NCBI GenBank assembly: GCA_001797675.1
Contig: MGQB01000018.1
Coordinates: 30,495-94,494 of the forward strand
DNA length: 64,000 nucleotides
Source: Deltaproteobacteria bacterium RBG_13_43_22
GTDB taxonomy: Bacteria > Desulfobacterota > RBG-13-43-22
Direction: 5' to 3'
A program made the translations under genes and the position numbers. Shown here piece by piece: positions 60,053 to 64,000 of the stretch. The stretch's first letter is position 1, and each line of letters begins with the position of its first letter. The notes below the pieces were generated by a model. The model was not told where the DNA came from, ran no database searches, and was given only the letters and a program-made list of their open reading frames with translations.

Positions 60053-61417
60053 ATGAAAGAAGAACCTTTGAAAATACATAGTGAGACCCTTTTTGAGGCG
60101 GTCTTGAATACCGTCAGTGACGCCATCACCGTAATCGACAAGGATTTGAACGTCCTTTTCCAGAACGAGGCCGTCCAACAAACCTACGGGCCCAAAATCG
60201 GGGAGAAGTGTTATGCAGCTTACCGTGGGCGCCAGGAGCCTTGCGAAAACTGTATCATCCTGGATGTCATAAAAGATGGAAAACCCAAAAGAGCGCTTCG
60301 GGACGTTCAACTGCCCGACGGCAATATTCTTTGGATGGAGGTTTTTTCAGGACCCTTTAAGGATAGGCAAGGAAAGATCATCGGGGCCACGGAGGTTGTT
60401 CGCAATGTAACGGAACAAGTCCGGCTTTCCGAAGAGTGCGTCACCCTCCGTCGGGAGATGGAACGCCAGGCCCAGTTTAATAACATCATCACCCAGTCCA
60501 AAAGGATGAAAGCGATCTTTCGACTCATCGAAAGGGTGGCCTCCACCATGAGCTCGGTGTTGATTACCGGGGAGTCCGGAACCGGGAAGGAGCTCATTGC
60601 CCGGGCCATTGTTTTTAACTCCGACCGAAAGGACAAGCCTTTCGTAACGGTCAATTGCGGGGCTATCCCGGAAAACCTGCTCGAGTCGGAGCTTTTCGGT
60701 CACGTGCGCGGATCATTTACGGGGGCGATTAAGGATCACAAGGGCCTCATTGAGACGGCCGATAGCGGCACCCTCTTCCTTGATGAAGTCGGAGAGATCC
60801 CTTTACCGGTTCAGGTCAAACTGCTTCGCTTTCTCCAGGAAGGGGAAACCCGCCGAGTCGGAGACACAAAGGTCCGAAAATTTGATGTCCGAATCATCTC
60901 CGCCACAAACCGTAATCTGGAAGAGGCCATCCGTGACGGGATATTCCGGGAAGACTTATTCTTCCGTTTAAATGTGATCCCCATTTTTCTGCCTCCGCTT
61001 CGGGAAAGAAAGGAGGACATCCCTCCCCTGGCCAATCATCTTCTTCAGCGTCTTTGTGATGCCCATTCCCGCAATGTGACGGGGATCTCATCGCAAACCC
61101 TCAGGGCATTTATGACCTACCCCTGGCCTGGAAACGTGAGAGAGATGGAAAATGTGATTGAATATACCTTACACCTCACCGACGAAGGGAATCCCATTCG
61201 ACCGGAACAGCTTCCCCCAAAACTGTTGTCTAAAACAGAGGTTTCCTGGAGTCCTCAGGATTTTGTCTCTATTGAAGAATATACCAAACAGTCCATCCAA
61301 GCCTTGCAGAGCGATCATTCCGAAGACCAAATTGCCGAGAAATTGGGCATCAGCCGAAAAAACTTATGGGAGAAACGAAAAAGATGGGGTCTGGTGAGAC
61401 CTGAAAAAGCCGTTTGA
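60053..61417 (+). CDS. Sigma-54-dependent transcriptional activator (PAS-AAA+-HTH)
   Basis: Walker A GESGTGKE, GAFTGA-type loop GSFTGA, ESELFGH, Walker B LFLDEV and a C-terminal Fis-type HTH. Confidence 0.9.
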   Translation: MKEEPLKIHSETLFEAVLNTVSDAITVIDKDLNVLFQNEAVQQTYGPKIGEKCYAAYRGRQEPCENCIILDVIKDGKPKRALRDVQLPDGNILWMEVFSGPFKDRQGKIIGATEVVRNVTEQVRLSEECVTLRREMERQAQFNNIITQSKRMKAIFRLIERVASTMSSVLITGESGTGKELIARAIVFNSDRKDKPFVTVNCGAIPENLLESELFGHVRGSFTGAIKDHKGLIETADSGTLFLDEVGEIPLPVQVKLLRFLQEGETRRVGDTKVRKFDVRIISATNRNLEEAIRDGIFREDLFFRLNVIPIFLPPLRERKEDIPPLANHLLQRLCDAHSRNVTGISSQTLRAFMTYPWPGNVREMENVIEYTLHLTDEGNPIRPEQLPPKLLSKTEVSWSPQDFVSIEEYTKQSIQALQSDHSEDQIAEKLGISRKNLWEKRKRWGLVRPEKAV

Positions 61418-61734
61418 TCTAATCTTGACCAGTTTGTAAAAAGTCTCCGAAACCCGAGTTACGTCATTCCGGTCCCGCATCAAGTGCGGGATAAACTCCA
61501 ACCGGAATTCTTCTCTGTGGTGAAGCCATGGGTTATCTGCCCCTATGTCCGATCAGATAGTTCCCGTGCCCCAAACACACATAGATTATAAGTATAATGT
61601 CCCCGGAATACCGCACATGTGGTCTTCTGTCAGGCCCTTAGTGGTGCACTTTGAACTGGAATCTGCCTTTCATCGAAATAAATTGGTATGGTGTCCCCTG
61701 ATTTTGTATTTTGCCCTGATTTGAAAAGTTCGCA

Positions 61735-61978
61735 GGGTCAAATCTTAAATATACATAAATTTCAAGATTTCTTGCTGCCTTGAATGAGAAAACATGGTGA
61801 CACCTTACTAGTTTCTTCGTACTACCGTAATGTCTTTCTTTTTCCGTAACGCGCCTGCTCGTCTTTCAGATCAAATCGGGTACTTCTTTCGGCTCAGTTG
61901 TATTCTATTTAAAGTGAACGTCATACTGGGGTAGGTTTCATGCGACCTCTGGTCATGTGTACATTTAAGATTTGATCC
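61735..61978. repeat. Pair of roughly 22-bp inverted repeats at the island junction (IS/MITE remnant?)
   Basis: gggtcaaatcttaaatatacat (61735-61756) versus atgtgtacatttaagatttgatcc (61955-61978). A 9-bp direct repeat catgcgacc lies at 61939 and 61983. Confidence 0.55.
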
Positions 61979-62036
61979 TCGGCATGCGACCACCATTTTC
62001 AGGCTTCATAAGTCAAACGGAGACCTGTCCCCTTTA

Positions 62037-62654
62037 TTATTTTGTTAATCTCTCAGATAAACCCAAAAAATAATCGCTTAGCAAAAGAAAAATAATTTTA
62101 GTTGCCCCTCTTTTTTTCATAATTAATAAGTCTGCCATCGTAGGGTTGAGTGAATATAAATATCCCAATTGATCCTTCACGAATTTTTCAAATTTATTTA
62201 TTGCAGAAGTGGATCTATGTGCAATAGCGTTCCTGATTATACGAATCTCGAATAGTTTATCTGGAGAATCGATTAACTTTTGAACTCTTGAATTTGCTCT
62301 AAAGAAATCATTAATTCTTTGTTTAACTAATGCTGAATCAAGCCAATCTAAGTATTCTTTATCCCTTTCACGTCTAGTTGCATTGATTTTTTTAAAAGCA
62401 TCATTCTTATTTCTTTGACTTGTAATTAAAGGCTTAATTTCATATCCTGATCTAGTTTTTCCAACACATAGACATCTCAAAAAGTATTCTTCACTAAAAA
62501 CTTCCCAGGACACAACAAGTCGAATGAAACAACCTTCAATATGGGTGTCACGCTCTAGACTAGCTGGCTGAGATGAAAGCCCAAGGACAATCCTGTTCAA
62601 TTCTTCAACTTCTTTTTTGAAATGAAAGAATATTGATGTTAGAGAATAAGCCAT
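62037..62654 (-). CDS. HEPN-domain protein (MAE_28990/RiboL-PSP-like), predicted RNase effector
   Basis: 205 aa, all-helical by composition, with a canonical R-x4-H motif (IRNAIAHRS, residues 140-148). The ATG is 1 nt after the DUF262 gene stop. Confidence 0.6.
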   Translation of the reverse strand: MAYSLTSIFFHFKKEVEELNRIVLGLSSQPASLERDTHIEGCFIRLVVSWEVFSEEYFLRCLCVGKTRSGYEIKPLITSQRNKNDAFKKINATRRERDKEYLDWLDSALVKQRINDFFRANSRVQKLIDSPDKLFEIRIIRNAIAHRSTSAINKFEKFVKDQLGYLYSLNPTMADLLIMKKRGATKIIFLLLSDYFLGLSERLTK

Positions 62655-62655
62655 A

Positions 62656-63687
62656 TCACTTGATCAGTTTAGCAATTTCTTTATGTCTAAATTTGCGCTG
62701 AGCAACATTACCAGTTGCTTGTTTAAATTTCGACTTGAAAACTGGATCATAATCTGGCCGTATATATTTAACACTGAACTCTTCTAATGAGATAATACTT
62801 TTTTCAATATCAATACTACCTGTTTTTTCTTCCTCTTGTCCTTCAAATCCAAATAAGCGTGCATATACTACAAGGAATATAGAGAAAAACATGAATTTTG
62901 GTTTAAACACATTTTTTATATGTTGTGATTCAAATAAATTCCCTAAAACTGTTATTACAGAATTAAAATTATTGTAAATTTCCTTTTTTATAGGAAGATC
63001 ATCATCATACTCACCATACATTCTATCGACTGCAGGGGAACTTGCTGATTTAATTCCTTGCATTAATGTATAAATGATATCAGATACAAGTGAGGCATCA
63101 GCCATCCTTGCTATCATATTTGGCGTTAGTATTTTAAAATCTATCCAAAAAGTATGATATTCTGCTGCGATTTCATAAATCAAAGTTTTCATTTCACCTG
63201 CATAAAGTGAATTTCTTTTTTCTTGAGTATTAAGTGGTAGGCTGAAAGAATTTAACCGAGAAAAAATCGAGATAATGTCACTTTCTGAAGCCCCTTTTAC
63301 AGAAATAAAAGAGACTTCAAAATCTTCTATCATTTGTTGTTCACTTCTAGGAAGCTGGCTGTATGTCAGTCCTACAAAGTTTTCGTCAAATATATTTTTC
63401 GATAAATTAAATTCATTGTTATAGAATTCCACAATTGTCGATATTCTCTGCTGGCCATCGATTATTTCTTTTCGTCTTTTACCTTCATCATTTACAAAAT
63501 CTCTTAGGTAAATTGGCGGCAATGGAAAATTGTTCATAATAGTGTCAATAAGAGCAGTTTTTGCTGTCAAAGGCCACCCTGTCCTTCTCCGCTGATATTT
63601 GGGTTGTATTGAAAGTTCTCGGCTTTTGAGAAGCCGTACAATGTCTAAAATGCTATACATTCTTTGTGATAGTTGAATTTTTGCCAT
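62656..63687 (-). CDS. DUF262 (ParB-like NTPase/nuclease N-terminal domain) protein lacking a DUF1524 nuclease half
   Basis: 343 aa with signature IIDGQQRISTI at residues 75-85. The C-terminal region is helical and has no His-Me/HNH motif I can see. Confidence 0.8.
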   Translation of the reverse strand: MAKIQLSQRMYSILDIVRLLKSRELSIQPKYQRRRTGWPLTAKTALIDTIMNNFPLPPIYLRDFVNDEGKRRKEIIDGQQRISTIVEFYNNEFNLSKNIFDENFVGLTYSQLPRSEQQMIEDFEVSFISVKGASESDIISIFSRLNSFSLPLNTQEKRNSLYAGEMKTLIYEIAAEYHTFWIDFKILTPNMIARMADASLVSDIIYTLMQGIKSASSPAVDRMYGEYDDDLPIKKEIYNNFNSVITVLGNLFESQHIKNVFKPKFMFFSIFLVVYARLFGFEGQEEEKTGSIDIEKSIISLEEFSVKYIRPDYDPVFKSKFKQATGNVAQRKFRHKEIAKLIK

Positions 63688-63828
63688 GTTTTTTTACCCC
63701 CCTTGTTGCTCTCATTTATTGATAAACATAGCCAAGATCAATCCATGTTTCTATGCGTATGCTATAAATAGGGACGTTTTATTGGAAATTATATTATTTT
63801 ATGGACACCTAATCCTGATTTATATCAA

Positions 63829-63999
63829 CTACATCGTACTTATATCAATATGCTTAAAGGGTTGGTATCGCTCAATTCTTTCTATAAAGCCTAAAGAGTC
63901 TAAATTCTTATTAATGCTCTCCGGGTCATGTCGTGGGCAAAAATAAAAAATTCCTTCATCCTCTCTTCTAATGCAAACTTCCTTTATATATGATGGTGG
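63829..63999 (-). CDS. 3' end of an ORF running off the window (partial)
   Basis: An open minus-strand frame from the window edge to TAG at 63829-63831. It encodes ..EDEGIFYFCPRHDPESINKNLDSLGFIERIERYQPFKHIDISTM and has the same AT-rich composition as the DUF262/HEPN pair. Confidence 0.3.
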   Translation of the reverse strand, partial: PPSYIKEVCIRREDEGIFYFCPRHDPESINKNLDSLGFIERIERYQPFKHIDISTM

Positions 64000-64000
64000 A

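What the first reader, a model, noticed from the sequence alone, without database searches (positions are those of the whole stretch)
62037..63687. Tightly coupled DUF262 (ParB-like) + HEPN gene pair in an AT-rich island: candidate uncharacterised defence module
Seen in the sequence: two minus-strand ORFs are separated by a single nucleotide (TGA at 62656-62658, ATG at 62652-62654). The upstream 343-aa protein carries the DUF262 signature IIDGQQRISTI. I see no DUF1524/His-Me nuclease half of the kind that completes GmrSD-type type IV restriction enzymes. The downstream 205-aa protein has a canonical HEPN R-x4-H motif (RNAIAH, residues 141-146). The block from about 62.0 kb to the window end is visibly much more AT-rich than the rest of the window, and it begins just after a junction containing IS-like inverted repeats. 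Established knowledge: DUF262 is the NTP-binding ParB-like module of GmrSD/SspE/DndB-type DNA-sensing defence proteins, and HEPN R-x4-H domains are metal-independent RNases used as abortive-infection and toxin effectors. From memory, computational HEPN-superfamily surveys noted HEPN + ParB-like operons as predicted conflict systems, but I know of no experimental characterisation. Inference: this is a split sensor (DUF262) plus effector (HEPN RNase) anti-phage system.
Basis: partly seen in the sequence, partly recalled or inferred. Interest (0 to 1): 0.78.

Follow-up and report, generated by a model that had tools for sequence, protein, structure and literature searches.

The report
DUF262 sensor plus HEPN RNase pair
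This is a horizontally acquired two-gene cassette: a ParB-like DUF262 NTPase tightly coupled to a HEPN ribonuclease. It has the same design as the E. coli anti-phage system PD-T4-2, which was validated by experiment, so it is a divergent new example of a known kind of defence system and not an uncharacterised one.

Summary
Two minus-strand genes, 343 aa (62656-63687) and 205 aa (62037-62654), are separated by one nucleotide. They lie in a block of 32% GC, against 47.9% in the rest of the window.

The 343-aa protein is a DUF262/GmrSD_N protein with intact QRxxxW, DGQQR and FxxxN motifs and no DUF1524 nuclease. The 205-aa protein is an all-alpha protein. Its R141-N-x3-H146 motif is invariant in 140 distant relatives.

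The pair is inherited as a unit:
- Every homologue examined, down to about 25% identity, has the DUF262 gene immediately upstream.
- Nucleotide homology between phyla stops at the two ORFs.
- In one Vibrio-like genome the pair forms a single integron cassette.

The design is not uncharacterised:
- RiboL-PSP-type HEPN "in operon with ParB" was described in 2013.
- PD-T4-2 ("DUF262, HEPN") was shown to protect E. coli from T4 in 2022.
- I retrieved PD-T4-2. It has the same gene order and AT-richness. In a gammaproteobacterial MAG the window's family occupies the same integrase-ssrA slot.

By sequence it is not a PD-T4-2 family member. The HEPN protein matches no PD-T4-2_B model, and the DUF262 proteins share 28% identity over the N-terminal domain only. 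PADLOC-type models would therefore miss it.

Verdict: a divergent member of a known, mechanistically unsolved class. Moderate interest.

The parts
62656..63687 (-). Gene A: a 343-aa ParB-like DUF262 (GmrSD_N) protein. It has an N-terminal NTPase domain (QRxxxW 32-38, DGQQR 77-81, FxxxN 142-146) and a C-terminal helical domain with a conserved FKQATGNxxQRxFRH tail. It has no nuclease domain.
   Evidence: Pfam GmrSD_N E=1.3e-21, residues 19-162. PADLOC NsnA 9.2e-44 over residues 3-343, and PD-T4-2_A 1.6e-25 over residues 12-199. The motifs are invariant in 27 homologues. AF2 pLDDT is 85.9; the top PDB folds are SspE 6jiv and BrxU 7p9k (probability 0.98), followed by ParB-CTP, Noc and sulfiredoxin.
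62037..62654 (-). Gene B: a 205-aa all-alpha HEPN-type protein, the predicted RNase effector. Its catalytic motif is I-R141-N-A-I-A-H146-R-S, and it has a WExFxEE motif at residues 50-56.
   Evidence: R141, N142, H146 and E51 are invariant in 28 sequences. R141, H146 and E51 are invariant in 140 distant representatives. Pfam HEPN_RiboL-PSP scores 18.8 bits, below the gathering score. 27/140 relatives hit that family. AF2 pLDDT is 94.8 and pTM 0.90. The best PDB matches are HepT/HEPN-MNT toxins, probability 0.85-0.96, E 0.2-0.6.
62652..62658 (-). Stop/start junction, TGA-T-ATG. There is a 1-nt spacer and no Shine-Dalgarno sequence, which implies translational coupling of B to A.
   Evidence: The spacing is similarly tight in relatives, from -19 to +4 nt.
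63697..63704 (-). Shine-Dalgarno-like AAGGGGGG, 9 nt upstream of the ATG of gene A.
   Evidence: Read directly from the sequence. No consensus sigma-70 promoter was found in 63688-64000.
62019..62032 (-). Weak terminator-like hairpin (GGGGACAGGTCTCC plus a T-rich tail), 5 nt after the stop codon of gene B.
   Evidence: It is only a consensus match: 3 were found against 1.3 expected.
61900..64000 (.). AT-rich block (about 32-33% GC). It is co-extensive with the two genes and their upstream leader, and marks the horizontally acquired cassette.
   Evidence: Nucleotide homology to copies in other phyla is confined to 62035-63695.
61734..61979 (.). Flank, not part of the module: a 246-bp element bounded by a 22-nt imperfect inverted repeat, lying between the sigma-54 activator gene and gene B.
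   Evidence: There is no Rfam match and no unusual folding.

Best explanation
The locus is a self-contained, horizontally mobile two-gene anti-phage module of the 'DUF262 + RiboL-PSP-type HEPN' kind. PD-T4-2 is the experimentally validated example of that kind.

Shown here:
- Gene A encodes a ParB/sulfiredoxin-fold DUF262 NTPase with all three nucleotide-pocket motifs intact. It also has a helical domain of the type that binds DNA in SspE. It has no nuclease.
- Gene B encodes a small helical protein with an invariant HEPN R-N-x3-H motif.
- The two genes are translationally coupled, always adjacent, co-evolve, and move together as a unit.

Inferred:
- A acts as an NTP-gated sensor of phage DNA. 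The signal could be a modified base, a replication or recombination intermediate, or simply invading DNA. This is by analogy with GmrSD, BrxU and SspE.
- A holds B inactive in a complex in uninfected cells.
- On sensing, NTP binding or hydrolysis changes the conformation of A. This releases or assembles the HEPN dimer, whose composite R-x4-H site cleaves RNA (tRNA, rRNA or mRNA). Translation stops and the infection is aborted.

In this Deltaproteobacterium the cassette is a recent acquisition sitting next to an IS110 element.
For: Domains and motifs.

Folds.

Obligate pairing:
- 14/14 loci from 185,579 species genomes have an A homologue immediately upstream of B. So do all metagenomic loci, including pairs with only 25-36% identity.
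- A and B identities correlate across loci, r=0.98.

The unit is exactly two genes:
- Nucleotide homology across phyla stops at the ORF ends.
- In L035 the pair is one integron cassette between attC-like repeats.

Defence and mobile-element context:
- It lies next to a P4-type integrase at ssrA, with type I RM, SIR2 and DUF4145 genes (L037).
- It lies next to R.HinP1I and a methylase (L025-28).
- It lies next to an integrase at tRNA-Met in V. parahaemolyticus.
- The window copy lies next to an IS110.

Same design as PD-T4-2:
- E. coli PD-T4-2, retrieved via the published lambda-red primer, is DUF262 (364 aa) followed by HEPN (167 aa, RiboL-PSP 31.4 bits), with a 4-nt gap and 33.6% GC. It sits beside a P4-type integrase at ssrA.
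- A is homologous to PD-T4-2A (28% identity, E=2e-17; hhalign 98.4%).
- PD-T4-2 protects against T4, both cloned in K-12 and in its native strain (PMC9519451).

DGQQR mutations abolish defence in the GmrSD-like protein HEC-06 (10.1101/2024.01.29.577857).
Against: - There is no experimental data for this family.
- The HEPN Pfam hit of the window protein is below the gathering score.
- Foldseek matches to HEPN toxins are not statistically significant (E 0.2-0.6).
- B is not recognised by any of the three PADLOC PD-T4-2_B models, nor are 140 relatives.
- Profile-profile similarity to the PD-T4-2B family is confined to the catalytic helix: hhalign probability 21-24%, cross-HMM scores of 11 bits or less. 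Function therefore cannot be transferred by orthology.
- The window locus and L034 are not in defence islands.
- The sensor role of A, the A-B complex, the RNA target and the abortive-infection outcome are all inference.
- Even for PD-T4-2, no mechanism is published in the searchable literature.
Confidence: 0.7

Rival explanations
1. It is primarily a toxin-antitoxin or addiction module. B is a HEPN RNase toxin and A is its upstream proteinaceous antitoxin. The main role of the pair is to stabilise the mobile elements or integron arrays that carry it, and any phage defence is incidental.
For: The gene order (neutraliser first, toxin second) and the translational coupling are typical of type II TA pairs. 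The pair occurs as a cassette in a large chromosomal integron array that also carries a TacA1-type antitoxin. It also lies beside integrases. The closest solved folds to B are HepT toxins of HEPN-MNT TA systems.
Against: A is 343 aa and has an invariant NTPase pocket and a conserved C-terminal domain. That is far more machinery than an antitoxin needs, and it is the machinery used for DNA sensing in GmrSD, BrxU and SspE. The system of the same design, PD-T4-2, confers phage defence (PMC9519451). The two readings are not mutually exclusive, because TA-like defence is common.
Confidence: 0.15
2. It is a remnant or minimal form of Menshen (NsnABC). Gene A is an NsnA whose NsnB ATPase and NsnC effector have been lost or lie elsewhere. 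B is an unrelated neighbour.
For: The best PADLOC hit of A is NsnA (9.2e-44, full length).
Against: The NsnA model is a generic 'DUF262 + helical domain' model; bona fide PD-T4-2A scores even better on it (1.6e-58). No ATPase or NsnC-like gene is adjacent in the window or in any of more than 30 loci. B is invariably present and co-evolves with A (r=0.98). The integron cassette contains only A and B. Li et al. 2025 define Menshen by NsnA followed by NsnB and a third gene (PMC12065111).
Confidence: 0.03
3. It is a split type IV restriction enzyme acting on DNA. A recognises modified phage DNA. The DNA is then cleaved either by A itself (as a ParB-like nuclease) or by B acting as a DNase. In that case the outcome is direct immunity and not RNA-targeted abortive infection.
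For: A is most similar in fold to SspE and BrxU. PD-T4-2 was selected on T4, whose DNA carries glucosyl-hydroxymethylcytosine, and T4-selected systems generally also protected against T2 and T6 (PMC9519451). ParB-fold proteins have been annotated as nucleases (PMC3710099).
Against: No DUF1524/His-Me, PD-(D/E)xK or other DNase signature is present in either protein. The invariant motif of B is the metal-independent HEPN RNase motif, and no HEPN DNase is known (established knowledge, PMC3710099). DUF262 domains characterised so far are NTPases and sensors, not nucleases (PMC10952713).
Confidence: 0.1

Closest known systems
PD-T4-2 (Vassallo et al. 2022, E. coli ECOR65; here read from NZ_CP013025.1, locus L024 6001-7603)
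   Same: - Two co-directional genes, with DUF262 (no DUF1524) first and a small RiboL-PSP-type HEPN with R-N-x3-H second, a few nucleotides apart.
- Both are AT-rich relative to the host.
- Both are cargo next to a P4-type integrase. The window's family occupies the identical int-ssrA-smpB-ratA-rnfH-bamE slot in L037.
- The A proteins are homologous over the DUF262 domain (28% identity, hhalign 98.4%).
   Different: - B is 205 aa against 167 aa, and is not detected by any PD-T4-2_B HMM. Profile-profile similarity covers only the catalytic helix (probability 21-24%).
- The C-terminal half of A does not align to PD-T4-2A.
- A has DGQQR where PD-T4-2A has DGLQR.
- There is no experimental evidence for this family.
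- Host range differs: this family is in Desulfobacterota, Bacteroidota, Cloacimonadota and marine Gammaproteobacteria, and has no E. coli, plasmid or phage copies.
Ribo L-PSP-HEPN family 'in operon with ParB' (Anantharaman et al. 2013; Pfam PF18735)
   Same: It is the computationally described class to which this pair belongs in architecture. Pfam PF18735 aligns to residues 13-154 of B, and many close homologues carry a precomputed PF18735 hit.
   Different: The window protein scores below the Pfam gathering threshold (18.8 against 28.4 bits). Only 27/140 distant relatives reach E<1e-3.
Menshen NsnA (Millman et al. 2022; Li et al. 2025)
   Same: A has the NsnA architecture: ParB-DUF262 plus a C-terminal helical 'ParBDB' domain. 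It gives a full-length match to the PADLOC NsnA model.
   Different: There is no NsnB ATPase and no NsnC inPIN-nuclease effector. The partner here is a HEPN protein.
GmrSD / BrxU / SspE (type IV restriction and PT-sensing nickase)
   Same: They share a DUF262 NTPase domain with a DGQQR pocket and an adjoining helical domain. They are the closest solved folds to A.
   Different: Those are single polypeptides with a C-terminal DUF1524 His-Me DNase. Here there is no DNase, and the effector is a separate HEPN RNase-type protein.
HEPN-MNT (HepT/MntA) toxin-antitoxin systems
   Same: The small helical HEPN toxin fold with R-x4-H is the best PDB match to B.
   Different: The partner is a DUF262 NTPase and not a MNT nucleotidyltransferase. 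The structural match is weak (TM 0.5-0.6 on the target, E 0.2-0.6).

Membership tests
PD-T4-2 (as defined by PADLOC: PD-T4-2_A + PD-T4-2_B) | Component A is a roughly 350-aa DUF262/GmrSD_N protein without a DUF1524 nuclease. | tested here: met
   Pfam GmrSD_N 1.3e-21 and no other domain; the protein is 343 aa.
PD-T4-2 (as defined by PADLOC: PD-T4-2_A + PD-T4-2_B) | Component A is best matched, over its full length, by the PD-T4-2_A model. | tested here: not met
   PD-T4-2_A scores 1.6e-25 over residues 12-199 only, and NsnA scores higher (9.2e-44). The E. coli reference gives 2.1e-162 over its full length.
PD-T4-2 (as defined by PADLOC: PD-T4-2_A + PD-T4-2_B) | Component B is matched by a PD-T4-2_B model (PDLC04028-04030). 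| tested here: not met
   There is no PADLOC hit at E<=1 for B. None of 140 relatives hit, and none of 5 distant partners hit. hhalign of the B family against the PD-T4-2B family gives probability 21-24%. Cross-HMM scores are 11 bits or less. The reference PD-T4-2B scores 7.9e-64.
PD-T4-2 (as defined by PADLOC: PD-T4-2_A + PD-T4-2_B) | Gene order is A then B, on the same strand and immediately adjacent. | tested here: met
   There is a 1-nt spacer. The same order is seen in all loci and in E. coli.
PD-T4-2 (as defined by PADLOC: PD-T4-2_A + PD-T4-2_B) | The pair confers resistance to phage. | not testable with these tools
   This needs plaque assays. It has been shown only for the E. coli system (PMC9519451).
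RiboL-PSP-HEPN + ParB operon class (Anantharaman 2013 / Pfam PF18735) | The HEPN protein belongs to PF18735. | tested here: inconclusive
   B scores 18.8 bits, E=0.0016, against a gathering score of 28.4. 27/140 relatives reach E<1e-3. Many close homologues carry a precomputed PF18735 hit.
RiboL-PSP-HEPN + ParB operon class (Anantharaman 2013 / Pfam PF18735) | The HEPN gene is in an operon with a ParB-like (DUF262) gene. | tested here: met
HEPN superfamily | It has a conserved R-x4-6-H motif, with a polar residue after R. | tested here: met
   R141, N142 and H146 are invariant in 28 sequences. R141 and H146 are invariant, and N142 at least 90% conserved, in 140 sequences.
HEPN superfamily | It has an all-alpha helical-bundle fold like solved HEPN domains. 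| tested here: inconclusive
   The AF2 model is confident (pLDDT 94.8) and all-helical. The top Foldseek PDB hits are HepT toxins, but with E 0.2-0.6 and target-normalised TM 0.5-0.6.
Menshen (NsnABC) | It has an NsnA-like ParB-DUF262 + ParBDB protein. | tested here: met
   PADLOC NsnA 9.2e-44, residues 3-343.
Menshen (NsnABC) | An NsnB ATPase gene lies immediately downstream of NsnA, followed by an NsnC effector. | tested here: not met
   The downstream gene is the 205-aa HEPN protein, followed by a non-coding junction and a sigma-54 activator gene. No ATPase is present in any related locus.
GmrSD / BrxU / SspE type IV restriction-like enzymes | It has a DUF262 domain with a DGQQR nucleotide pocket. 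| tested here: met
   D77-R81 are invariant. The fold is closest to SspE and BrxU.
GmrSD / BrxU / SspE type IV restriction-like enzymes | It has a DUF1524 His-Me finger nuclease domain, fused or adjacent. | tested here: not met
   There is no DUF1524 hit in A, B or their neighbours. A ends at residue 343.
HEPN-MNT toxin-antitoxin | It has a cognate MNT nucleotidyltransferase antitoxin. | tested here: not met
   The partner is DUF262, and no NTP_transf_2-type gene is adjacent.

The most novel reading that the evidence does not exclude
The pair represents a distinct, unnamed and widely transferred family that current defence-finder models miss. In it, a ParB-fold NTPase that reads DNA directly gates a trans-encoded HEPN RNase: a 'DNA-sensing, RNA-cutting' hybrid between type IV restriction and abortive infection. 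The family is compact, with both proteins 60-85% identical from Desulfobacterota to Vibrio, and this may make it the most tractable model for solving the still unknown mechanism of the whole PD-T4-2 class.
Probability: 0.45. Interest if true: 0.55.

Novelty: new member of a known kind. Interest (0 to 1): 0.35.

Why it matters
DUF262 + HEPN systems are validated as anti-phage defences, but their trigger, target and activation mechanism are unknown.

This family widens the class. It shows that the architecture is conserved down to about 25% identity, across at least 230 clusters (50% identity) of the HEPN partner, and that it travels as a minimal two-gene cassette in integrons, ssrA and tRNA islands, and next to IS elements.

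It also exposes a detection gap: PADLOC's PD-T4-2_B models miss every one of these partners.

For annotation of this genome the practical result is modest: one small acquired defence or TA-like cassette, not a defence island.

Tried and rejected
1. Filing the locus as PD-T4-2 proper. Rejected: the B models do not match and the profiles do not align beyond the catalytic helix.
2. Filing it as Menshen. Rejected: no NsnB or NsnC is present, and the NsnA model is generic.
3. Looking for DUF262-HEPN fusion proteins as Rosetta-stone evidence. The two long hits (P0137, P0248) are repeat-protein artefacts.
4. Looking for solved structures by sequence. None were found for either protein.
5. Looking for copies on plasmids, in phages or in IMG/VR contigs. 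None were found.
6. Rfam scan of the flanks and of the IS110 leader. No match.
7. Treating the 246-bp inverted-repeat element as a structured RNA or DNA. The z-score is -1.1, so it is not supported.
8. A tRNA as integration site in the window. None found.
9. Promoter prediction upstream of A. No consensus site found.
10. The 'partial upstream ORF' as a third component. It is not conserved in any other locus.
11. A first attempt to scan genomes with a too-diverse alignment failed. It was repeated with a tighter alignment.
12. hhalign against a single PD-T4-2B sequence was uninformative. I therefore spent the third homology search on building a PD-T4-2B family alignment.
Full report
**Observation**

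The two minus-strand ORFs are at exactly the stated coordinates: 62656..63687 (343 aa) and 62037..62654 (205 aa). The stop codon of the first (TGA, 62656-62658) and the start codon of the second (ATG, 62652-62654) are separated by one base. No Shine-Dalgarno sequence precedes the second ATG. An AAGGGGGG sits 9 nt before the first ATG. The arrangement therefore looks like translational coupling.

The pair is 32.0% GC, with GC3 of 23%. The rest of the window averages 47.9% (sd 2.8, minimum 40.9), and the adjacent sigma-54 activator gene has GC3 of 58%. A 22-nt imperfect inverted repeat (61734-61755 and 61958-61979) does lie at the junction and is unique in the window.

**What the proteins are**

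The 343-aa protein (A) matches Pfam GmrSD_N/DUF262 (E=1.3e-21) and nothing else. There are no NCBIfam hits.
- In 27 homologues the three DUF262 motifs are invariant: QRxxxW, DGQQR and FxxxN. A C-terminal FKQATGNxxQRxFRH motif is nearly invariant.
- Its AlphaFold2 model (pLDDT 85.9) is most similar to SspE and BrxU, then to CTP-bound ParB, Noc and sulfiredoxin.
- No DUF1524 or other nuclease is present.

The 205-aa protein (B) reaches only a sub-threshold Pfam HEPN_RiboL-PSP score (18.8 bits, against a gathering score of 28.4).
- R141, N142 and H146 (IRNAIAHRS) and E51 are invariant in 28 sequences. R141, H146 and E51 remain invariant in 140 representatives down to about 20% identity.
- 27 of those 140 reach PF18735 at E<1e-3.
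- Its model is confident (pLDDT 94.8, pTM 0.90) and all-helical.
- The best PDB matches are HepT/HEPN-MNT toxins, although not at significant E-values.

I accept B as a HEPN-type protein, on the motif and family-level evidence and not on its own profile score.

**The pair is a unit**

The window comes from 'Deltaproteobacteria bacterium RBG_13_43_22'.
- Both proteins have homologues of fixed length (343 and 205 aa) at 58-99% and 60-84% identity. These occur in Bacteroidota, Cloacimonadota, Vibrio, Pseudoalteromonas, Colwellia, Methylobacter, Acinetobacter and others.
- A scan of one genome from each of 185,579 species found only 14 loci. All 14, and every metagenomic locus fetched, carry an A homologue immediately upstream of B.
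- This includes pairs with 25-36% identity from Pleurocapsa, Mesorhizobium, Terriglobales and Bacteroidota, and three distant representatives.
- A and B identities to the window proteins correlate at r=0.98. Nucleotide homology between phyla is confined to window 62035-63695.
- In a Vibrio-like genome (L035) the two genes form one cassette between attC-like repeats in a large integron array. This delimits the functional unit as exactly two genes.

**Context**

L001 is 100% identical to window 61386-64000 and extends past the window end. The next gene there is an IS110-family transposase. The AT-rich block is only the cassette itself. The surrounding genes are metabolic or regulatory (enoyl-CoA hydratases, a sigma-54 activator, CoA ligase), so this is a solitary insertion and not a defence island.

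Elsewhere the pair sits in these contexts:
- beside a P4-type integrase at ssrA, with type I RM, SIR2 and DUF4145 genes (L037);
- beside an integrase at tRNA-Met in V. parahaemolyticus;
- next to an R.HinP1I/methylase pair;
- in one case in an ordinary chromosomal neighbourhood (L034).

It is AT-rich relative to its flanks in 18 of 20 loci. No copies were found in plasmid, phage or IMG/VR collections.

**Comparison with what is known**

PADLOC models gave the lead. A matches NsnA (Menshen) at 9.2e-44 and PD-T4-2_A at 1.6e-25.

The literature shows three things:
- Anantharaman et al. 2013 listed 'Ribo L-PSP-HEPN ... operon with ParB'.
- Vassallo et al. 2022 isolated PD-T4-2, annotated 'DUF262, HEPN'. 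HHpred assigned PD-T4-2B to HEPN_RiboL-PSP at 97.8%. They validated it against T4 in K-12 and by deletion in its native strain ECOR65.
- Later reviews still list its mechanism as unknown.

I recovered the E. coli system by searching the published lambda-red deletion primer against complete E. coli genomes. It matched 17 of 5,426 genomes. In NZ_CP013025.1 the system is a 364-aa DUF262 gene followed, after 4 nt, by a 167-aa 'HEPN domain-containing protein'. It lies between psu and the integrase of a P4-like satellite at ssrA. The architecture, gene order, AT-richness and chromosomal slot are thus the same as for the window's family.

**Membership**

The sequence relationship to PD-T4-2 is distant.
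- A and PD-T4-2A share 28% identity over 178 residues of the DUF262 domain (E=2e-17; hhalign 98.4%). Their C-terminal halves do not align.
- B and PD-T4-2B share only the RNAxAH helix.
- I built a 31-sequence PD-T4-2B alignment. Profile-profile comparison gave probability 21-24%, and cross-HMM scores were 11 bits or less.
- None of the three PADLOC PD-T4-2_B models recognises B, its 140 relatives or the distant partners. They score the E. coli protein at 7.9e-64.
- The NsnA model is generic: it scores true PD-T4-2A at 1.6e-58. No NsnB or NsnC gene accompanies any of these loci, so Menshen is excluded.

The locus is therefore of the PD-T4-2 kind (DUF262 + RiboL-PSP-type HEPN) but is not a PD-T4-2 family member by the models that define that family. 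Automated defence annotation would miss it.

**Mechanism**

Shown:
- an intact NTPase pocket and a helical domain in A;
- an invariant HEPN catalytic motif in B;
- coupling, co-inheritance and mobility of the pair.

Inferred from GmrSD, BrxU and SspE (NTP-dependent DNA sensing by DUF262) and from HEPN biology (dimeric, metal-independent RNases used as abortive-infection and TA effectors):
- A senses phage DNA.
- Through NTP binding or hydrolysis, A licenses B to cleave RNA, which arrests translation.

Rivals:
- a mainly addictive TA role (0.15; not exclusive of defence);
- DNA-directed restriction (0.10);
- a Menshen remnant (0.03).

**Verdict**

Its claim that the design is uncharacterised was not: the design was predicted in 2013 and validated in 2022. 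What is new is a divergent, highly conserved and widely transferred family of that design, which current models do not detect. I rate this as moderate interest.

Noticed in passing
window 61734-61979: A 246-bp element is bounded by a 22-nt imperfect inverted repeat (20/22), between the sigma-54 activator gene and the HEPN gene. It is unique in the window, has no Rfam match and is not unusually structured. It may be a MITE-like or IS-end remnant marking the insertion boundary.
   Followed up: partly
L001 7141-8163 (about 0.5-1.5 kb beyond window position 64000): An IS110-family transposase (DEDD_Tnp_IS110 + Transposase_20) lies immediately upstream of the pair, on the same strand. The AT-rich leader upstream of it (L001 6600-7140) gave no Rfam hit.
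   Followed up: partly
L035 8777-10723 (CP095351.1, 'bacterium 19MO03SA05'): The DUF262-HEPN pair is a single integron gene cassette flanked by attC-like repeats. It sits inside a large cassette array that also carries SMODS, TacA1 and many acetyltransferase cassettes.
   Followed up: partly
L037 8967-14874 compared with L024 5968-11380: In a gammaproteobacterial MAG the window's family occupies the same slot as E. coli PD-T4-2, in the order pair, P4-type integrase, ssrA, smpB, ratA-like, rnfH, bamE. This is despite the two HEPN partners having no detectable sequence relationship. The L037 island also holds type I RM, SIR2_2 and DUF4145 genes.
   Followed up: partly
window 62659-62730 (residues about 320-343 of the DUF262 protein): The C-terminal motif FKQATGNxxQRxFRH is nearly invariant in close homologues. 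It is recognisable as (R/K)xxT(T/G)...R in pairs at about 30% identity. Its function is unknown; it may be a DNA- or phosphate-binding or partner-binding element.
   Followed up: no
20 loci including L024: DUF262-HEPN pairs are AT-rich relative to their flanks in 18 of 20 loci, for example E. coli PD-T4-2 at 33.6% against 51.8% GC. The two exceptions are in hosts that are already at about 26-27% GC.
   Followed up: yes
L034 10615-11157 (Draconibacterium): An extra 180-aa ORF overlaps the stop codon of the HEPN gene by 4 nt. It has no Pfam match and is absent from the other loci.
   Followed up: no
L020 1913-4717: A 934-aa protein lies directly upstream of a distant DUF262-HEPN pair in a Bacteroidota MAG. 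From its sequence it looks like a large methyltransferase or type IIG-like enzyme. It was not scanned against profiles.
   Followed up: no
window 62659-63687 (protein A): PHROG family phrog_2598 (unknown function) matches the DUF262 protein at 2.5e-36, so related DUF262 proteins occur in phage genomes. The HEPN partner has no PHROG match.
   Followed up: no
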